A stretch of DNA of 64,000 nt, from assembly GCA_028280405.1 (NCBI GenBank), contig JANQLW010000013.1, positions 6,902-70,901 of the forward strand. Reading direction: 5' to 3'. The position numbers were made by a program, and so were the translations under genes. The number at the start of each line of letters is the position of its first letter. The first letter of the stretch is position 1. Source of the stretch: Bacteroidales bacterium. Lineage in GTDB: Bacteria; Bacteroidota; Bacteroidia; Bacteroidales; GCA-2711565. Shown piece after piece: positions 1 through 9,429 of this stretch. A model generated the notes under the pieces. The model made no database searches, was not told where the DNA came from, and worked only from the letters and a program-made list of their open reading frames with translations.

Positions 1-650
1 ATATCTTCTGCTACCAAAGATTCAAAGCCTTCATAAACTTTATCTGCAGCATTTTGATCACCTTTTAGCCTAACTAAAGAGAACTCCGTTTCAACCGCTC
101 CCGGAGCTATCTGGCTTACTTTAATACCATGTTCCAGTAAATCAATCCTCATACCCTTGGTTAATGCATCAACTGCATGCTTGGTTGCACAATAAACATT
201 TCCTTTAGGGTAGACTTCCTTACCGGCTATAGATCCGATATTAATGATATGGCCCTCTTTATTTTCTATCATGAAAGGAATGATTTCTTTAGAGATATAA
301 AGAAGTCCTTTCAGATTAGTATCTATCATCTGTTCCCAATCTGAAAGATCAGCAGTTTGAATAAAATCAAGCCCGGCAGCTAATCCGGCATTGTTTACCA
401 AAACGTTTATTTTTTTCCAATCTTCAGGTAAAGAAGCAACTGCACTTACAACCTCATCATGTTTCCTGATGTCAAAGCATAAACTAAAAATCTTAACATT
501 ATATTCTTCTTCAAGTTTAACTTTAATTTTATGAAGGCGATCTTCTCTTCTTCCGGTGAGGATCAGATTATAATTATTTTGAGCAAATTTAAAGGCACAG
601 GCTTTACCTATACCGCTGGTTGCTCCGGTAATCAATGCTATTCTATTCAT
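1..650 (-). CDS. SDR family NAD(P)-dependent oxidoreductase (YdfG-like); 3' end runs off the window
   Basis: Not in the ORF track. Reverse strand from ATG at 650 reads MNRIALITGATSGIGKA, with later NNAG and YPKGNVYCATK (YxxxK) motifs. Starts 12 nt after the TonB receptor stop. Confidence 0.9.
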   Translation of the reverse strand, partial: MNRIALITGATSGIGKACAFKFAQNNYNLILTGRREDRLHKIKVKLEEEYNVKIFSLCFDIRKHDEVVSAVASLPEDWKKINVLVNNAGLAAGLDFIQTADLSDWEQMIDTNLKGLLYISKEIIPFMIENKEGHIINIGSIAGKEVYPKGNVYCATKHAVDALTKGMRIDLLEHGIKVSQIAPGAVETEFSLVRLKGDQNAADKVYEGFESLVAED

Positions 651-662
651 TGGTTAGTTGAA

Positions 663-2576
663 TTATAGATTTATATTATACGTAAATCCGGCACGAATCC
701 ATCTTCCCGGCATCACGACATTACCGATATCAAAATAAGATTCGTCCAGTAAATTTGTTGCTTCCAAATATACGTTCCAATTTTTAATCTGCCAATTTAA
801 ACGGGTATCAATAATAAAGAAAGGGTCGTAAGCAACTTCCTGCCCTAATGCAAAATCTGCATAAGTACCTGCACGATCCTGGTAAATCATTTGCCAGTTC
901 AGACTTACATTTTTTACGATATTATGAGAAACATTTAAACCTAACTTATGTTTTAAATAATCAAGGGCATACTTAGAAATAAAGTCTCCACTCGACTTCT
1001 TAACATCAATAAAAGCATAGCTTAAACGGAAACTGTTTATTGGTAAATTAGCATCTTTAAACATTTTCTTATTAGCGATAAAAGAAAATTCAACACCTCT
1101 TGTATCAAGCTCAGTAATATTTTTACTTTCCCATTTATCGGCAGTATTCAATTTTACCCAATCAATAATATTTTCACCATTACGGTTAAAATAAGCAGTT
1201 TCTAAAATAAAATTTTTGGCAAAATACTTAATTCCACCTTCTATCGTTACTGCTTCTTCTGGTTGAATATCAGGGTTTCCAATATTTGTAGGACCTACAT
1301 AATATAAATCGGTAAAAGTAGGAATACGGTATGATTTATTAACTGAGGCAAATAATTTAAAATCTTCAGTTAAATTGAAGCTAATATCAACTCCGGGGAA
1401 AACTTCCCAGTCAAATGCCGAGTTATAGTTAAGCATAGCACCGGTACTAATATTGAAAACATCTGAATAGTAAGCATGTTCTACGAAAAATGATAAATTA
1501 TCCCGGGAATCACTTTTTGTATAAAATAAATTATCTTCTCCTCCGATTTTTTTAGGTTTGTCCAGATCCAGGCCAAGTCTATTGCTATAAATTTTCTCGT
1601 TGCGGAAAGATGCGCCTAAAGCTGTTCTTCCTAATGAAGATATAAAGTTTAAATTACCTTCTATACCATAAACATGTGTTTGATGATAGTTATGAGTTGT
1701 ATACCAGGAAGCCGGATTGTCCCTGAACAATTCAAACCTGTCATTATGCTTTTTATAATAGCTTGAAAACTTATATTTTACTTTTTTTCCACCCTGATAT
1801 CTTGCAGAAATGAAATAAGTTCTCGTTGCTTCGTATTGATTAGGATATGCAGGAGTATAGAAACTATTTGCTCCAAAACCTTTATCCTGATAAGCAGCCT
1901 GAAAATCAAGTATACTGTTTTTAAATTTTAATGCCGCCTGATAATGTGCATTTCTGATTTCGTAATCTGTATTTTCGATGTAACCATCAGAAGCATTTCT
2001 GGAAACACTAAGGTTATTTGTAAAATTACCATCTGTTAATGTAGCTGAAACAGATTGAGAATTGATTTTATGCTCACCAAATGAAGCACCCACTTTAATT
2101 CTGTCTTCATCAGGTCTGGTTGTAATAATATTGATTGCACCACTGAAAGCATTTGGTCCGAAAATACGTGAAGCTGGACCTTCCAAAACTTCTATTCTTT
2201 CAATGCTACTTACATCAACAGGGATGTCCGCATTATGATGGCCTGTTTGTGGGTTATTAAAAGGAATTCCATTAATCAGGATTAACGTTTGATCAAAAGA
2301 ACCACCACGAATACTAATATCAGATTGAACACCATGATAACCTCTTTGACGAACATCTACGTTCATGGCATACTCTAATAAGTCGGCTACACTGTGAACA
2401 GGTGCCTGACGGATTTCCGCTTTGGTCAGCACATTAACAATTCTTGAACTTTGAGAATAAACGGCCGGAACTTTACTCGATTTGATTTTTATTTCATCAA
2501 TCCAAATGGTATCGTTTGTGGCGTTTGCGAATAAGAATGAACAAATTAGAAATAATGATAAGCTTAATTGTTTCAT
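663..2576 (-). CDS. TonB-dependent receptor (plug + beta-barrel)
   Basis: Signal peptide; plug motifs ISIRGGSFDQTLILING and IERIEVLEGPASRIFGPNAFSGAINIIT; C-terminal NLLDESY...PGRWIRAGFTY. Confidence 0.93.
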   Translation of the reverse strand: MKQLSLSLFLICSFLFANATNDTIWIDEIKIKSSKVPAVYSQSSRIVNVLTKAEIRQAPVHSVADLLEYAMNVDVRQRGYHGVQSDISIRGGSFDQTLILINGIPFNNPQTGHHNADIPVDVSSIERIEVLEGPASRIFGPNAFSGAINIITTRPDEDRIKVGASFGEHKINSQSVSATLTDGNFTNNLSVSRNASDGYIENTDYEIRNAHYQAALKFKNSILDFQAAYQDKGFGANSFYTPAYPNQYEATRTYFISARYQGGKKVKYKFSSYYKKHNDRFELFRDNPASWYTTHNYHQTHVYGIEGNLNFISSLGRTALGASFRNEKIYSNRLGLDLDKPKKIGGEDNLFYTKSDSRDNLSFFVEHAYYSDVFNISTGAMLNYNSAFDWEVFPGVDISFNLTEDFKLFASVNKSYRIPTFTDLYYVGPTNIGNPDIQPEEAVTIEGGIKYFAKNFILETAYFNRNGENIIDWVKLNTADKWESKNITELDTRGVEFSFIANKKMFKDANLPINSFRLSYAFIDVKKSSGDFISKYALDYLKHKLGLNVSHNIVKNVSLNWQMIYQDRAGTYADFALGQEVAYDPFFIIDTRLNWQIKNWNVYLEATNLLDESYFDIGNVVMPGRWIRAGFTYNINL

Positions 2577-2611
2577 GTTTTTAGTTTTATATTTATTTTT
2601 TGTTTTATTAT

Positions 2612-2998
2612 TTAGGACATAAAAAAAGTCTGCTTTCTACAATTTGTAAAAAACAGACTTTGAATATGCCGTATAAAATTTTTAAACAGACTATTTTCCT
2701 GTGACGAGATAACTGAATTAAGATTAAAAACAGAAAGGGCTAAAATCACAAAGAATGATAATTGCAGCATGCTTTGATCCGCAATATTTACCTCGCTTTC
2801 GTCATCTTCAGAATCCTCCGTATTTTTTGAAATGGTAATGATATCAACCAAACCTTTAAGCAGCGTTTGCTGACAAATGCCGGCTTTAAGCACCCCAATT
2901 TTAACCTGTTTCCCCAGGGAAGCAAAAATAGCATAATTCTTCCTGCTCCATTTAGAGAAAACCAGTTGTTCGGACGATATATAGTTTCGTTGATTCAT
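2612..2998 (-). CDS. Small hypothetical protein, candidate leader peptide of the TonB receptor operon
   Basis: 128-aa ORF with N-terminal FSKWSRKNYAIFASLGKQVKIGVL motif; ATG lies 8 nt after a TACTTTTG promoter element; stop is 35 nt before the receptor ATG. Confidence 0.65.
   Translation of the reverse strand: MNQRNYISSEQLVFSKWSRKNYAIFASLGKQVKIGVLKAGICQQTLLKGLVDIITISKNTEDSEDDESEVNIADQSMLQLSFFVILALSVFNLNSVISSQENSLFKNFIRHIQSLFFTNCRKQTFFMS
2621..2660 (-). terminator. Intrinsic terminator or attenuator hairpin inside the 3' end of the leader ORF
   Basis: Minus strand AAGUCUGUUUUUUACA-aau-UGUAGAAAGCAGACUU forms a 16-bp stem with 2 G-U pairs and runs into a U7 tract. Confidence 0.75.
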
Positions 2999-3006
2999 TT
3001 AAGGTG

Positions 3007-3014
3007 CAAAAGTA
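3007..3014 (-). promoter_or_regulatory. Bacteroidota primary-sigma -7 element (TAnnTTTG)
   Basis: Minus strand TACTTTTG, 8 nt before the ATG at 2998. Confidence 0.65.
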
Positions 3015-3029
3015 AAAATTCTTTTTTAG

Positions 3030-6000
3030 CTAGGCTTGATTCTTTATCCATTCTCTGGCATTCACAAATGCTTCTACCCAAGGAGTAATCTCATCGTTTT
3101 TACGCTCTTTCGGATATTCAGGCCATTGCCATGGCATGAAAGCACGTTCCAGGTGAGGCATCATTACTAAATGACGCCCGTCGTCAGAACACATTCCTGC
3201 CACATTGTAATCCGATCCGTTCGGATTTGCCGGATATCCTTTATAAGCATACTTCATAACTATATTATAAGTGTCTTCACTATAAGGAAGGCTGTATTTC
3301 CCCTCACCATGAGCTACATGGATACCTAATTTCGACCCTGCTAATGTTTTTAACATGATCGAATTATTTTCCGGAATATCAACACCTAAAAAATTAGCTT
3401 CGAATTTATGTGAATCATTATGTAACATTTGAGGCTTTTCTTTATGATCCGCATGAACCAGATTCAATTCCATCATTAGCTGACAACCATTACAAACACC
3501 CAAGCTCATTGTATCTTTACGAGCATAGAAGTTTTCAAGTGCCGTTCTTGCTTTTTCATTATACAAGAAGGCTCCGGCCCAACCTTTAGCTGACCCCAAA
3601 ACATCCGAATTTGAAAATCCGCCTACAAAAACGATAAAGTTCACATCCTCTAAGTTTTCCCTTCCAGAAATTAAATCAGTCATATGAACATCTTTTACAT
3701 CGAAACCCGAAAGATGCATAACATATGCCATTTCACGGTCTCCATTCACACCTTTTTCGCGGATGATTGCGGCCCTTATTCCCGTTTTCTCTTTTCTACT
3801 TAATTCAATATTGTATTGATTTGCCTTACCCGTAAAGTTTACTGGGAATAAAAAATTCAATTCATGGTTTTTATAGTTTTTAAAACGCTCTAATGCTAAT
3901 GCTTCGCCGCATTGCTTACGATCGAATAAATAAGAAGTTTTAAACCATAAATCCCTTAATTGATTTACATCCAATGTAAAATGATTATCATAATGTTTGA
4001 TCGCAACAGTTCTGTTTACTGTTGGCTGTCCAATTGAATGGTAAGTTATATTGTTTGCGCTTAAAATTTCTTTTACTTTTTCAGATGCTTTAACCTGAAT
4101 AATAATACCCGGGTTTTCACTGAAAAATAATTTTGCAGTATCTTTTTCTTTAACAGAAGAAAGATCCACATTTAATCCAAGGTCATTTCTTCCAAAGGTC
4201 ATTTCCAATAATGCTGTAATCATACCTCCGGCAGAAATATCATGGCCGGCAAGTATCAATTCTTTCCGGATCAAATCCTGAATAGTATTAAATGCATTTA
4301 CAAAATACGGAGTATCAGTAACAGCTGGAGTTTCTGCTCCCAATGCATTAACCAATTGGGCAAAACTACTTCCTCCTAATTTATATTCATCATTTGATAA
4401 GTCGATATAAAGAAGTTCTGTTTTTGTATCATTATCCAATACAGGGCTAACAACTTTACGAATATCATCTACCTCTCCTACTGCAGAAATAATTACTGTA
4501 CCCGGTGCATATACAATATCACCATTTGAATATTTCTGAGTCATCGATAATGAATCTTTACCTGTCGGAATATTAATCCCTAAATCACATGCAAAGTTAC
4601 TTACAGCTTCAACCGCATCATATAAACGAGCATCTTCGCCTTGATTTTTAGCAGGCCACATCCAGTTTGCACTTAATGATACACCTTTAATATCATCCTG
4701 CATTGGAGCCCATACAATATTAGTTAAAGATTCAGCAATTGAAAGTACTGATCCTTTAACCGGGTCAACCATTGCTGCAACCGGTGCATGGCCAATCGCA
4801 TTTGCAATACCTTTTTTACCTTGATAATCCAAAGCAACAACTCCCAGATTATTTAAAGGCACCTGGATTGTCCCGGCACATTGCTGTATGGCTACTCTAC
4901 CGGTAACGGAACGGTCAACTTTATTTGTTAACCAATCTTTACAAGCAACTGCTTCCAATTGCAATAAATCTTCTATATAGGACTGAATTTTTGACCGGTC
5001 ATACTGAACAGCTTTAAAACCATTTTCCTTTTTCTTATCTCTAAGTATTGTTTTGGGAGGTTTTCCAAACAGATATTGAAGGTTCAAATCTATAGGATTA
5101 CCTTTTCCCCCTTCAAAAACAAAATGTTCATCATTACGAACTTTACCAACAGCATAAATTGGAGACCTTTCACGTTCAGCAATTTTATTTAAAAGGTCAA
5201 AATCCTTTCCTTTCATCACAAGCCCCATTCGTTCTTGTGATTCATTTCCGATAATTTCTTTCGCTGACAAGGTTGGGTCACCGACAGGTAATTTTGAAAG
5301 GTCAATAGTTCCTCCGTTATCTTCAACAAGTTCAGATAAACTATTTAAATGTCCTCCGGCACCATGATCATGAATAGAAACGATGGTATTTTCATCAGAT
5401 TCAACAATACCGCGAATAGCATTTAATACTCTTTTTTGCATTTCAGGATTTGCACGCTGAACGGCATTTAATTCGATAGCATTTCCATATTCACCGGTAG
5501 CCACAGAGGAAACAGCACCTCCTCCCATACCAATACGATAATTATCGCCTCCAAGAACCACAATAATATCACCTTCTTCAGGTTGTGCTTTCAAGCTATC
5601 TGCTTTTTTACCAAAACCAATACCACCGGCAAGCATAATTACTTTATCATAACCAAATTTCTTATCATTTTCAAAATGCTCGAAGGTTAGTAAACTACCG
5701 TTAATCAAAGGCTGTCCAAATTTATTTCCGAAATCACTGGCTCCATTTGAAGCTTTAATCAGAATATCTTCAGGAGATTGATATAACCAGGGGCGTTCAT
5801 CAGTTTTTTGTTCCCAGCTTCTGTTTTCTTCCAATCTCGGATAAGAAGTCATATATACTGCAGTACCGGCAATTGGCAAACTACCTTTACCTCCTGCCAT
5901 ACGGTCACGGATTTCGCCACCGGTTCCGGTTGAAGCACCATTGAATGGCTCAACGGTAGTAGGGAAATTATGAGTTTCGGCTTTGAGCGAAATAACAGTA

Positions 6001-6725
6001 TCTATTTCTTTAATCTCAAAAAAGTCCGGCTTATCCTGAGATGTAGGAGCAAACTGCTCAACTTTAGGTCCTAAAATAAAAGCAACATTATCTTTATATG
6101 CCGAAACCAAGCGGTTAGGATTTTCTTTGGAAGTTTTTTTGATCAATGCAAAAAGAGTGTCGGTTTTCTCTTTTCCATCAATAATGAAAGTTCCATTAAA
6201 AATTTTATGACGGCAGTGCTCTGAGTTAACCTGAGCAAATCCATAAACTTCTCCGTCAGTAAGTTTACGGTCAATTTTTTCACTTACTTCTTCCAGGTAA
6301 GAAATTTCATCCTGACTTAAAGCCAAACCTTCAGTTTCATTATACTCCGCAATATTTTCAATTGAAATGATCGGGTCGGGTTCTTTTTCTATCGTAAAAA
6401 TATTTTGATCAAGATTTTTATAAAGTGCCTGAAGCATTGGATCATATTTAGCTTCGGCATTATTTTGTTTATGGAATTCTTCTATACGTTCAATACCCTC
6501 AATACCCATATTTTGGGTAATCTCAACAGCATTTGTACTCCAGGGAGTAATCATCTCTTTACGTGGCCCGATAAAGTAACCTTCAACTTCCAGCTTATTC
6601 AAATAACCGGCTCCACCAAATAACCAACTAAGTTTTTCCTGATTTTCAGTATTAATTTCTACTGAGGAATTTACTGCAAAATAAACTCCATTTTTCCCTT
6701 GATAGTAAAGAATCGTTTTTTCCAT
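3030..6725 (-). CDS. purL: Phosphoribosylformylglycinamidine synthase (large type)
   Basis: NSEHCRHKIFN, KAETHNFPT, IHDHGAGG; glutaminase domain LGVCNGCQ and MMPHLER. Confidence 0.98.
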   Translation of the reverse strand: MEKTILYYQGKNGVYFAVNSSVEINTENQEKLSWLFGGAGYLNKLEVEGYFIGPRKEMITPWSTNAVEITQNMGIEGIERIEEFHKQNNAEAKYDPMLQALYKNLDQNIFTIEKEPDPIISIENIAEYNETEGLALSQDEISYLEEVSEKIDRKLTDGEVYGFAQVNSEHCRHKIFNGTFIIDGKEKTDTLFALIKKTSKENPNRLVSAYKDNVAFILGPKVEQFAPTSQDKPDFFEIKEIDTVISLKAETHNFPTTVEPFNGASTGTGGEIRDRMAGGKGSLPIAGTAVYMTSYPRLEENRSWEQKTDERPWLYQSPEDILIKASNGASDFGNKFGQPLINGSLLTFEHFENDKKFGYDKVIMLAGGIGFGKKADSLKAQPEEGDIIVVLGGDNYRIGMGGGAVSSVATGEYGNAIELNAVQRANPEMQKRVLNAIRGIVESDENTIVSIHDHGAGGHLNSLSELVEDNGGTIDLSKLPVGDPTLSAKEIIGNESQERMGLVMKGKDFDLLNKIAERERSPIYAVGKVRNDEHFVFEGGKGNPIDLNLQYLFGKPPKTILRDKKKENGFKAVQYDRSKIQSYIEDLLQLEAVACKDWLTNKVDRSVTGRVAIQQCAGTIQVPLNNLGVVALDYQGKKGIANAIGHAPVAAMVDPVKGSVLSIAESLTNIVWAPMQDDIKGVSLSANWMWPAKNQGEDARLYDAVEAVSNFACDLGINIPTGKDSLSMTQKYSNGDIVYAPGTVIISAVGEVDDIRKVVSPVLDNDTKTELLYIDLSNDEYKLGGSSFAQLVNALGAETPAVTDTPYFVNAFNTIQDLIRKELILAGHDISAGGMITALLEMTFGRNDLGLNVDLSSVKEKDTAKLFFSENPGIIIQVKASEKVKEILSANNITYHSIGQPTVNRTVAIKHYDNHFTLDVNQLRDLWFKTSYLFDRKQCGEALALERFKNYKNHELNFLFPVNFTGKANQYNIELSRKEKTGIRAAIIREKGVNGDREMAYVMHLSGFDVKDVHMTDLISGRENLEDVNFIVFVGGFSNSDVLGSAKGWAGAFLYNEKARTALENFYARKDTMSLGVCNGCQLMMELNLVHADHKEKPQMLHNDSHKFEANFLGVDIPENNSIMLKTLAGSKLGIHVAHGEGKYSLPYSEDTYNIVMKYAYKGYPANPNGSDYNVAGMCSDDGRHLVMMPHLERAFMPWQWPEYPKERKNDEITPWVEAFVNAREWIKNQA

Positions 6726-7793: not shown

Positions 7794-7831
7794 TTTCAGG
7801 GGCGACGCCCCTCGGGGCGTCGCCCCTGAAA
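7794..7831. repeat. GC-rich perfect 18-bp inverted repeat (REP-like)
   Basis: TTTCAGGGGCGACGCCCC-tc-GGGGCGTCGCCCCTGAAA; each arm is itself near-palindromic. Confidence 0.8.
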
Positions 7832-9036: not shown

Positions 9037-9429
9037 TTATGATGTTGACACCATTATCTCATTGCGCCGGGCAATCAAAAATTCTTCAGTGATTTCGAAG
9101 ATTTCCAAAGGTTTTATATTCACATCATCAATTAATTTACCGTAAAAACTTAACACATGCTGATTCCAACAGTCAATTTTCACCGGAGTTTGTTCATTTA
9201 ATTTTAAGAATTCCGTTAATTCTTCATCATTCTTAAATACATATTGGCAAATCTTCTTAACCCTGGTAAAACAGGCAACACGTTTTTCAAAGTTAAGTGT
9301 TGAACTACTCACAAGTGGTTTCAAATCGTGAAAATGTAAAAACTCAGAATGTGGAGCGTTAGCAATCGGATTAAATTTTACCTTTTTTTCGTTTTCAGGG
9401 TGAAAATCAGATAATCGGTTCCTTCCCAT
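9037..9429 (-). CDS. Hypothetical protein
   Basis: 130-aa ORF filling an intergenic gap; no recognisable motif. Confidence 0.6.
   Translation of the reverse strand: MGRNRLSDFHPENEKKVKFNPIANAPHSEFLHFHDLKPLVSSSTLNFEKRVACFTRVKKICQYVFKNDEELTEFLKLNEQTPVKIDCWNQHVLSFYGKLIDDVNIKPLEIFEITEEFLIARRNEIMVSTS

What the first reader, a model, noticed from the sequence alone, without database searches (positions are those of the whole stretch)
1..3014. Candidate leader-peptide attenuation system controlling a TonB receptor-SDR operon
Seen on the minus strand, in order: a -7 promoter (TACTTTTG, 3007-3014); an ATG only 8 nt later; a 128-codon ORF; a 16-bp hairpin plus U7 (2621-2660) lying inside that ORF's last ~15 codons; then the TonB receptor ATG and a closely spaced SDR gene. 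I saw no TAnnTTTG promoter between the hairpin and the receptor ATG. From memory, not verified here: a motif like F.RWSRK.YA.F.SLG+.V.IG.L recurs in Bacteroidota, both as stand-alone small ORFs and as N-terminal extensions of this receptor family. Inference: a ribosome translating to the end would melt the terminator and allow read-through, whereas ligand-dependent stalling at the motif would let it form. That would be a riboswitch-free feedback switch for an unknown imported nutrient, possibly processed by the SDR.
Basis: partly seen in the sequence, partly recalled or inferred. Interest (0 to 1): 0.8.

Follow-up and report, generated by a model that had tools for sequence, protein, structure and literature searches.

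The report
Biotin-sensing leader peptide of Bacteroidales
A conserved 35-residue peptide, here encoded in a short gene that runs into a transcription terminator ahead of an outer-membrane transporter, heads the biotin-making genes in many related bacteria, so it is likely a vitamin-B7 feedback switch, predicted to stall its own ribosome when biotin is plentiful, and this transporter is likely a biotin importer.

Summary
Observation confirmed; the likely ligand can now be named. The motif FxxWSRKxYAxFxSLGKxVxIGxL occurs in 142 of 301 genomes of the window's order. Of 44 short-frame copies, 41 sit directly before bioB or bioA of the biotin operon. Most other copies are the N-terminus of orthologues of this receptor; some are fused to BioB(-BioA) or to a secreted amidase. 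Stand-alone leaders form a fixed cassette: -7 promoter (36/48), near-leaderless start, motif under protein-level selection (dN/dS about 0.06), an unconserved spacer, and a terminator about 290 nt downstream (41/48). The leader frame stays open to the hairpin in 41/41 (other frames 3 and 2), with no antiterminator. Stranded RNA-seq of one relative shows 4-8-fold more leader than bioB RNA. This genome lacks bioB/bioD but has biotin-carrier domains; BirA has no repressor domain; receptor and bioB are largely complementary (12/71 versus 141/230). Best model: biotin-dependent ribosome arrest on the nascent motif uncouples RNA polymerase and lets the terminator act, or blocks the fused protein directly. 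Stalling and ligand are inferred, not shown. The SDR is incidental. No description found in ten literature searches.

The parts
3007..3014 (-). Bacteroidota-type -7 promoter box TACTTTTG, 8 nt before the leader ATG (near-leaderless transcript, inferred)
   Evidence: same box upstream of 36 of 48 stand-alone leaders; consensus recalled
2612..2998 (-). Leader ORF, 128 aa; no Pfam or NCBIfam family; relatives are annotated 'hypothetical protein'
2855..2959 (-). Conserved peptide F14-K48 (FSKWSRKNYAIFASLGKQVKIGVLKAGICQQTLLK), predicted biotin-responsive arrest element
   Evidence: dN/dS 0.04-0.08
2662..2854 (-). Poorly conserved spacer that must stay open in frame; contains an acidic patch (2789-2818) also seen at +50..+59 codons in relatives
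   Evidence: dN/dS about 0.4
2621..2661 (-). Intrinsic terminator (stem plus U7) overlapped by the leader ORF; probably also ends purL read-through
663..2576 (-). TonB-dependent outer-membrane receptor, 637 aa, orthologue of the motif-fused receptors; predicted biotin (or biotin precursor) importer
1..650 (-). YdfG-like short-chain dehydrogenase, 12 nt behind the receptor, runs off the window; likely co-transcribed passenger, not part of the switch
3030..6725 (-). purL, upstream neighbour only in this genus; in G010 it abuts the receptor with the whole promoter-leader-terminator cassette absent

Best explanation
The short gene encodes a conserved peptide that is likely a biotin-responsive, cis-acting brake on its own ribosome, and the terminator it overlaps would convert that brake into an off-switch for a likely biotin importer. 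Shown: the cassette's anatomy, selection on the peptide, its link to the biotin operon, the open frame up to the hairpin, the lack of an antiterminator, and a leader-heavy RNA profile in one relative. Inferred: (1) the near-leaderless mRNA loads a ribosome at once and the 100-codon run lets it close up behind RNA polymerase; (2) when biotin is scarce the ribosome reaches the hairpin with the polymerase and covers its 5' arm, so transcription continues into the receptor (elsewhere into bioB-bioA-bioF-bioG-bioC-bioD); (3) when biotin is plentiful the ribosome arrests with the motif in the exit tunnel (conservation ends sharply at residue +34/+35 from the first Phe, about one tunnel length), the polymerase runs on alone and the default terminator forms; (4) where the motif is fused in frame to the receptor's signal peptide, to BioB or to a secreted amidase, the same arrest blocks synthesis directly and no terminator is needed (5 of 52 fused loci have a hairpin in that window). 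My odds by step: belongs to a biotin regulon 0.93; acts in cis as a translated peptide 0.88; ribosome position controls the terminator 0.85; biotin is sensed by peptide plus ribosome without a further protein about 0.65 of the remainder.
For: Downstream genes: 36 bioB, 5 bioA, 3 receptor among the 44 short-frame matches; named cases P. distasonis WP_005854776.1 before bioB and B. finegoldii WP_237923578.1 fused to BioB-BioA. Four genomes carry the motif twice (three on both bio genes and receptor, one in tandem before the receptor), and four put receptor and bio genes in one same-strand cluster (G026, G400, G512, G519). Receptor family in 12 of 71 bioB genomes against 141 of 230 others. Own genome: no bioB, bioD, bioC, bioG or BioY, but four AMKM biotinyl domains. 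Terminator starts +233..+334 nt from the motif Phe (sd 18.5) in 41 of 48 leaders from 24 families; frame open to within 12 nt of the stem in 41 of 41, other frames 3 and 2, shuffle expectation 1.4; replicate in one family 38 of 38, other frames 4 and 2. Ordinary gene-end terminators of this genome avoid that zone (25 of 159). dN/dS 0.057-0.068 core, 0.39-0.42 spacer; synonymous codons free. No antiterminator (0 of 41 duplexes beat the hairpin; stem probability above 0.7 in 40 of 41). BirA lacks the N-terminal DNA-binding domain in 30 of 30 loci read. RNA-seq of the L335 species: leader depth 49-70, hairpin region 0.5-4, bioB mean 8-12.
Against: No stall, ligand or biotin response was measured. 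27 of 71 bioB genomes show no motif at their biotin genes and 5 more have it only on the bioA operon. 40 of 40 further in-order and 25 of 25 out-of-order receptor orthologues checked lack the motif, and the out-of-order neighbours are not biotin genes, so the receptor's substrate rests on regulon logic only. 7 of 48 leaders had no terminator by my criteria. The RNA data are one study of one relative in an unknown medium; depth is lumpy, also dips to near zero inside bioB and starts to fall about 90 nt before the hairpin; contigs of two other studies bridge the hairpin. The motif RNA folds slightly better than GC-matched recodings (mean z -0.5 to -0.8), unexplained. In this window purL has no terminator of its own, so the hairpin may do double duty. 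Genomes are kin, so the counts overstate independence.
Confidence: 0.62

Rival explanations
1. Same switch, indirect sensor: a biotin-loaded protein (most simply the repressor-less BirA carrying biotinyl-AMP, or a biotinylated carrier protein) binds the motif after it leaves the tunnel and halts or aborts translation; the 100-codon spacer gives time for this.
For: BirA is present in 58 of 59 genomes searched and has no DNA-binding domain in the 30 read. The motif is long for a tunnel peptide, has a fixed 11-15-residue N-terminal arm and is modelled as a small beta-alpha-beta-alpha unit (pLDDT 68). The motif would be fully outside the ribosome about 25 codons before the hairpin.
Against: No invariant lysine and no AMKM-like site, so covalent biotinylation of the leader is unlikely (best Lys columns 38 and 42 of 48; 0 of 100 with AMKM). 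In receptor fusions the second half of the motif is the signal-peptide h-region (49 of 52 hydrophobic), which export factors would claim as it emerges.
Confidence: 0.17
2. The switch is a nascent-peptide attenuator but senses something other than biotin: a precursor (dethiobiotin, KAPA/DAPA, pimelate), S-adenosylmethionine, or fatty-acid/membrane status that follows biotin supply.
For: BioB, BioA and BioC all use SAM (established knowledge); SAM-induced arrest exists in plant CGS1 (PMC7038982, passages). G026 and G519 pair the receptor with bioB alone, the pattern of dethiobiotin salvage.
Against: Most carriers are genomes without bioB that hold only the receptor, where only the end product is a sensible signal; the motif was found on no other SAM or lipid genes among 103 loci mapped.
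Confidence: 0.09
3. No ligand-dependent switch in cis: the peptide acts after release (small protein, or cleaved signal peptide) and the hairpin is a fixed damper or, in this window, simply the purL terminator with an open frame to let some transcription through.
For: purL has no other terminator here; G010 runs the receptor straight from purL; a constitutive 4-8-fold step would give the same RNA picture.
Against: The hairpin keeps its distance from the motif under many different upstream genes. A damper needs an open frame but not a peptide at dN/dS 0.06. A trans-acting protein would not tolerate a tail whose stop wanders from +249 to +402 nt nor in-frame fusion to three unrelated proteins.
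Confidence: 0.07
4. One reading: a switch for an unknown nutrient that the receptor imports and the SDR processes (or a B12/iron receptor as the automatic names suggest).
For: Receptor and SDR are 12 nt apart in all seven leader-bearing loci of the genus mapped; best NCBIfam hit is the B12 receptor model and sources name relatives 'vitamin B12 transporter' or 'iron complex receptor'.
Against: B12 model score 134.7 against a cut-off of 599.7; no cobalamin or other riboswitch in the window; SDR absent behind 52 motif-fused receptors and present behind 5 motif-less ones; stand-alone motifs point to biotin genes.
Confidence: 0.03

Closest known systems
CruR uORF of Bordetella pertussis (DUF2946; Roy et al. 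2022, PMC9426467, abstract and Discussion read)
   Same: An upstream ORF of about the same role before a TonB-dependent transporter; ligand sensed through the nascent protein; outcome is transcription termination before the transporter; riboswitch-free.
   Different: CruR senses copper by CxxC, stalls at a C-terminal RAPP when ligand is absent and uses Rho. Here there is no RAPP or CxxC (0 of 100), the conserved part is N-terminal, the terminator is intrinsic and the predicted polarity is reversed (arrest with ligand gives termination).
Metabolite-sensing arrest peptides TnaC (Trp; PMC8429421, listing only), fungal AAP (Arg) and plant CGS1 MTO1 (SAM) (PMC7038982, passages)
   Same: Peptide-level conservation with invariant aromatic residues; predicted ligand-induced arrest; CGS1 shows the same trick working inside a main ORF as end-product feedback.
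   Different: No sequence family match. Ligand would be a vitamin cofactor. One motif serves four architectures, including the n-/h-region of a Sec signal peptide. TnaC arrest turns genes on; this would turn them off.
Ribosome-occlusion attenuators of the E. coli pyrBI / pyrE type (recalled; general principle in PMC7858274, passages citing Li et al. 2015)
   Same: Leader ORF translated into an intrinsic terminator, no antiterminator helix, coupling decides; terminators lose efficiency with distance from the start codon, which fits the 100-codon spacer.
   Different: There the signal acts on RNA polymerase speed and the leader peptide sequence is irrelevant (recalled); here the peptide is under strong selection.
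Known biotin regulators BirA and BioQ (named in PMC6593275, passages) and BioR (recalled)
   Same: Would control the same regulon: bio operon plus transporter.
   Different: Those are DNA-binding repressors. Here BirA lacks the DNA-binding domain and no operator is conserved upstream.
CutF of Rhodobacter capsulatus (PMC9973294, abstract) and Sec/YidC monitoring substrates (PMC10987492, passages)
   Same: Nascent-chain control linked to a signal peptide.
   Different: They arrest at C-terminal proline-rich motifs and act on a downstream ribosome-binding site; the Bacteroidales members in that paper lie upstream of secA/secDF and 'biotin' does not occur in its text.

Membership tests
Metabolite-sensing arrest peptide (TnaC/AAP/CGS1 kind) | Function resides in the amino-acid sequence, not the RNA | tested here: met
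   dN/dS 0.04-0.08 in the motif, dS not reduced, Ser as both AGY and TCN, no consensus RNA structure
Metabolite-sensing arrest peptide (TnaC/AAP/CGS1 kind) | Ligand-dependent ribosome arrest at a defined codon | not testable with these tools
   needs toeprinting or ribosome profiling
Metabolite-sensing arrest peptide (TnaC/AAP/CGS1 kind) | Placed in cis before or within genes that make or import the ligand | tested here: met
   41 of 44 short-frame copies before bioB/bioA; fusions to BioB and to the receptor
Ribosome-occlusion attenuator (pyrBI/pyrE kind, recalled) | Leader ORF translated to within a ribosome footprint of an intrinsic terminator | tested here: met
   41 of 41 and 38 of 38; other frames 2-4
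Ribosome-occlusion attenuator (pyrBI/pyrE kind, recalled) | Host couples transcription and translation | tested here: inconclusive
   indirect only: 25 of 159 gene-end terminators within 12 nt of the stop; Bacteroidota not among the runaway phyla listed in PMC13323073
Ribosome-occlusion attenuator (pyrBI/pyrE kind, recalled) | Signal acts through nucleotide-sensitive polymerase pausing; peptide sequence irrelevant | tested here: not met
   peptide strongly conserved; pausing itself not tested
Classical trp/his attenuator | Antiterminator helix competing with the terminator | tested here: not met
   0 of 41 upstream duplexes stronger than the hairpin, mean z -0.22
Classical trp/his attenuator | Short leader with a run of codons for the sensed amino acid | tested here: not met
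   leaders of 96-160 codons, no conserved codon run
CruR/CutF uORFs | CxxC plus C-terminal RAPP or polyproline motif | tested here: not met
   0 of 48 stand-alone and 0 of 52 fused within 110 residues of the motif; no DUF2946 hit
BirA biotin regulon | BirA with N-terminal DNA-binding domain | tested here: not met
   30 of 30 loci read start 20-50 residues before the GxG biotin loop; own BirA hits only PF03099 at E<=1e-12
BirA biotin regulon | Palindromic operator upstream | tested here: not met
   3 of 91 loose matches at two mismatches to a recalled operator pattern; no shared upstream word beyond the promoter
Riboswitch | Conserved, covarying RNA aptamer in an untranslated leader | tested here: not met
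   no Rfam match in the window or over eight leader loci; -7 box 4-11 nt from the ATG in 23 of 35 scored leaders; empty consensus structure
BtuB vitamin B12 receptor | Reaches the curated cut-off of TIGR01779 / NF007926 | tested here: not met
   134.7 of 599.7 and 102.9 of 836 bits
Biotin transporter (claim for the receptor) | Binds and imports biotin | not testable with these tools
   only shared motif, four clusters with bio genes and complementary distribution

The most novel reading that the evidence does not exclude
This is the missing biotin sensor of the Bacteroidales: a portable 35-residue nascent peptide that binds biotin together with the ribosome tunnel and arrests translation, the first vitamin-sensing arrest peptide. 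It is used as a terminator-coupled leader, as an N-terminal cap on biotin synthase, and as a signal peptide that gates its own export substrate. It marks an undescribed TonB-dependent biotin importer and a secreted YiiX-type amidase that may release biotin from biocytin.
Probability: 0.45. Interest if true: 0.95.

Novelty: new variant of a known kind. Interest (0 to 1): 0.86.

Why it matters
Biotin has no described riboswitch that Rfam finds here, and in these bacteria BirA cannot act as a repressor, so how the dominant gut order regulates biotin synthesis and uptake was open as far as my searches reach. The motif gives a directly testable answer, in cultured species with named proteins (P. 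distasonis WP_005854776.1; B. finegoldii WP_237923578.1). It also assigns a likely substrate to a single-copy receptor family found in half of the order and mislabelled as B12 or iron receptor, which bears on vitamin cross-feeding in the gut. If arrest is direct, it extends ribosome-tunnel sensing from amino acids, polyamines and SAM to a vitamin, and shows a signal peptide doubling as a metabolite sensor; it would be a compact biotin biosensor part.

Tried and rejected
Family searches of the leader found nothing: Pfam, NCBIfam, ESM Atlas (only weak eukaryotic hits, recognition below threshold), fold search of the 46-residue model (one chain at Z 2.0 of 48,161; no evidence either way). Complex prediction of the motif with BirA gave no verdict (score 0.00) and is not used. 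Covalent biotinylation of a leader lysine: rejected, no invariant Lys. RNA-level element or operator inside the motif: rejected, apart from a mild unexplained folding bias. Antiterminator: none. Second promoter after the hairpin: 0 of 48. Frameshift joining leader and receptor in the window: not supported; the receptor has its own signal peptide and the gap varies across the genus. SDR as part of the system: rejected. Neighbours of 29 receptor loci from the phylum search (64 proteins scanned) gave no biotin genes. A sodium:solute symporter of G000 resembling the one in the G519 biotin cluster (43%) lies among sugar-nucleotide genes and glnA, no link shown. Phylum-wide motif search: strong hits only within the order, nine weak hits (E 7.6e-4 to 9e-3) not followed, although named proteins from Niabella and Flammeovirga show it occurs outside; an unfiltered profile search of all proteins was not obtained, so the outer range is open. 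Leader-only RNA contigs in two studies (ends 1788-1808 of L335) are a weak hint only. Earlier scan findings: none on this motif. Literature: searches found no description; subscription papers and supplements were not seen; Johnson 2020 and Rodionov 2002 were not held.
Full report
1. Observation. On the minus strand the window shows, in order: the end of purL (3030), TACTTTTG (3014-3007), an ATG at 2998, a 128-codon ORF to 2612, a hairpin at 2661-2628 with U7 at 2627-2621 inside the ORF's last 16 codons, a 637-aa TonB-dependent receptor (2576-663) and an SDR from 650. There is no TAnnTTTG between hairpin and receptor, no Rfam match in the window and no Pfam or NCBIfam family for the leader. The description is accurate.

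2. The motif and where it lives. Nineteen close homologues share an invariant N-terminal block and diverge after about residue 50. A 38-column profile matched 142 of 301 genomes of the window's order, 146 places, almost always one copy; in a phylum-wide sample strong hits were confined to the order, but named proteins show copies in Barnesiella, Parabacteroides, Tannerella, Niabella and Flammeovirga. I fetched all 44 matches with an open frame under 250 aa, 50 of the 102 long-frame matches plus one, and five more loci of the genus. Of the 44 short-frame copies, 36 lie directly before bioB (one of them in frame at a contig end), 5 before bioA, and 3 before the receptor (one a broken receptor frame); the operon is bioB-bioA-bioF-bioG-bioC-bioD. 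Of the 51 long-frame loci, 50 are the receptor with the motif as N-terminal extension running into the signal peptide, and one is BioB-BioA. Every fused receptor has the window's receptor as best hit in this genome. One gut-type family gave 98 of 121 genomes and two further architectures: in-frame fusion to BioB-BioA with an internal Met 44-54 codons after the motif Phe, and motif plus signal peptide on a secreted YiiX/C92 amidase gene upstream of the receptor (9 loci; 4 of 4 scanned match PF05708). Annotated records confirm this: P. distasonis WP_005854776.1 'hypothetical protein' before bioB, and B. finegoldii WP_237923578.1 fused.

3. The biotin link of the receptor. In the same 301 genomes bioB is in 71 and the receptor family in 153 (E<=1e-35, about nine weak rows included); only 12 have both, i.e. 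12 of 71 against 141 of 230 (Fisher p 2e-11, overstated because genomes are kin). G026, G400, G512 and G519 place receptor and bio genes in one same-strand cluster; G394, G519 and G587 carry the motif on both. The window's genome (95% complete) has no bioB, bioD, bioC, bioG or BioY, and only paralogue-level bioA/bioF hits, yet four AMKM biotinyl domains; five more genomes of the genus also lack bioB. Against: 44 of 71 bioB genomes have biotin genes under the motif, 27 do not, and no motif was found around 32 other bioB loci, several near contig ends; 40 in-order and 25 out-of-order receptor orthologues lack the motif and the latter have no biotin neighbours. The substrate is therefore a strong inference, not a result.

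4. Anatomy of the stand-alone cassette (48 loci: the 44 plus five of the genus plus the window, minus the in-frame BioB fusion and the broken receptor). The start Met sits 11-15 codons before the invariant Phe. A -7 box lies upstream in 36 of 48 (controls 0-4); in 23 of 35 scored it ends 4-11 nt before the ATG, against 0 of 34 fused genes, so most leaders have almost no untranslated region. Conservation runs from Phe(0) to Lys(+34) and stops; an acidic patch follows at +50 to +59. A terminator-like hairpin starts +233 to +334 nt from the Phe in 41 of 48 loci (24 families; sd 18.5 nt; controls 0-3; fused genes 5 of 52) while the stop codon wanders from +249 to +402. In 41 of 41 the leader frame is open to within 12 nt of the stem, usually into or through it; the other frames manage 3 and 2, and shuffles predict 1.4. 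A second set of 39 loci from one family gave 38 hairpins and 38 of 38 open frames, other frames 4 and 2. Ordinary gene-end terminators in this genome avoid this zone (25 of 159; peak at 18-30 nt), as expected where a trailing ribosome blocks hairpins; PMC13323073 (passages) does not list Bacteroidota among runaway phyla, and PMC7858274 (passages) reports that intragenic terminators lose efficiency with distance from the start codon because ribosomes catch up, which fits the 100-codon spacer. No antiterminator was found and the hairpin forms by default.

5. Peptide, not RNA or DNA. dN/dS is 0.068 and 0.057 in the core, 0.039 and 0.075 in the extension, 0.39 and 0.42 in the spacer (7 pairs in the genus, 25 pairs in the second family, chosen by 60-97% spacer identity, not independent). 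Synonymous codons are used freely, the consensus RNA structure is empty and no operator is shared; a mild folding excess (mean z -0.5 to -0.8) remains unexplained. BirA lacks its DNA-binding domain in this genome and in 30 of 30 loci read. There is no invariant Lys, RAPP, CxxC or AMKM. In receptor fusions residues +16 to +41 are hydrophobic (49 of 52) and in stand-alone leaders mostly not (7 of 48), so the leader looks like a signal peptide whose export function was switched off.

6. Expression. For the species of locus L335 (leader before bioB), three stranded raw-read runs of one study give sense-strand depth of 70, 49 and 54 over the leader core (1525-1719), 0.5-4 around the hairpin (1785-1914; stem 1809-1840) and means of 8, 12 and 12 over bioB (19 bins; my averages): a 4-8-fold step. 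Depth is lumpy, also dips inside bioB, and the medium is unknown. RNA contigs from two other studies cover the leader only, and two bridge the hairpin: weak hints. This shows a transcribed leader with partial read-through, not regulation, and not in the window's organism.

7. History of this locus. In a tree of 124 receptors the window's genus nests among mostly motif-less orthologues (deep nodes weakly supported), its leader is of the bio-operon type, and in G010 of the same genus purL abuts the receptor with the whole cassette missing; 8 of 12 genomes of the genus have the leader. The simplest reading (inference) is that a promoter-leader-terminator cassette was placed before a receptor that had lost its own motif. 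The SDR travels with the receptor in this clade regardless of the motif.

8. Mechanism. A stall upstream of this terminator can only switch transcription off; for a biosynthetic operon and an importer, off must mean plenty, so the arrest should be induced by biotin. The same arrest explains the fused forms without any terminator. I favour direct sensing by peptide plus ribosome (0.62) because conservation spans about one tunnel length and ends abruptly, and because the motif works in front of three unrelated proteins; a protein intermediary such as BirA (0.17), another signal (0.09), a constitutive damper or trans-acting peptide (0.07) and the SDR/B12 reading (0.03) are the rivals. Arrest, ligand and transport are all inferred.

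9. Known systems and novelty. It works like a hybrid of metabolite-sensing arrest peptides (AAP and CGS1: PMC7038982, passages; TnaC: PMC8429421, listing only) and ribosome-occlusion attenuators (pyrBI/pyrE, recalled). CruR (PMC9426467, abstract and Discussion) is the nearest in setting but differs in motif, terminator type and polarity; CutF (PMC9973294, abstract) and the monitoring substrates (PMC10987492, passages) differ likewise. PMC6593275 (passages) lists BirA and BioQ as regulators and BioY/YigM as transporters for biotin in gut bacteria and does not mention TonB; PMC3878776 has no occurrence of 'biotin'; PMC13753749 (passages) adds only that NusG-S10 contacts are conserved in Bacteroidota. 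Ten searches found no description of this leader, of biotin-dependent attenuation or of a TonB-dependent biotin importer in these bacteria; subscription papers and supplements were not seen and may hold fitness or Term-seq data that bear on it. Verdict: a real, widespread, apparently undescribed regulatory element; new variant of a known kind; interest 0.86.

Noticed in passing
L312-L320 (e.g. L312:1491-2306); also L134:4538-5170: Motif plus signal peptide fused to a secreted YiiX/C92 permuted papain-like amidase upstream of the receptor (and a C92 gene right behind a motif-fused receptor in G029): candidate biocytin-cleaving enzyme; untested.
   Followed up: partly
L116:3923-5374: Sodium:solute symporter between leader-bioB and a motif-fused receptor in G519: candidate inner-membrane carrier for biotin or dethiobiotin.
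   Followed up: partly
L078 (G413): Tandem arrangement: stand-alone motif ORF directly followed by a receptor that carries the motif again; no terminator found by my criteria.
   Followed up: partly
L310, L326, L327: Independent split form: receptor-type motif with its hydrophobic region kept, as a separate 135-150 aa ORF upstream of the receptor.
   Followed up: no
L082, L093, L081, L088, L114 and L202-L206: Five genomes where the leader heads bioA-F-G-C(-D) while bioB lies elsewhere without a leader; in two the leader ORF overlaps far into bioA.
   Followed up: partly
L136, L170: Two motif-bearing receptors only 25% identical to the window's receptor, branching apart in the tree: the motif may have moved to a second receptor family.
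   Followed up: no
window 7794-7831: Near-perfect 17-pair GC-rich inverted repeat between trxB and a cation-efflux-like gene, in an otherwise AT-rich region; terminator or repeat element.
   Followed up: no
window 9037-9429: 130-aa ORF on the minus strand between trxB and a transglutaminase-like ORF; not searched.
   Followed up: no
L283:1836-1900: Rfam FopS sRNA (RF04319, above gathering score) just upstream of and opposite to a biotin leader.
   Followed up: no
L118-L122, L075 and genome C23 beyond the window start: One or two long-chain acyl-CoA ligase genes follow the SDR throughout the genus, suggesting the SDR belongs with fatty-acid metabolism.
   Followed up: no
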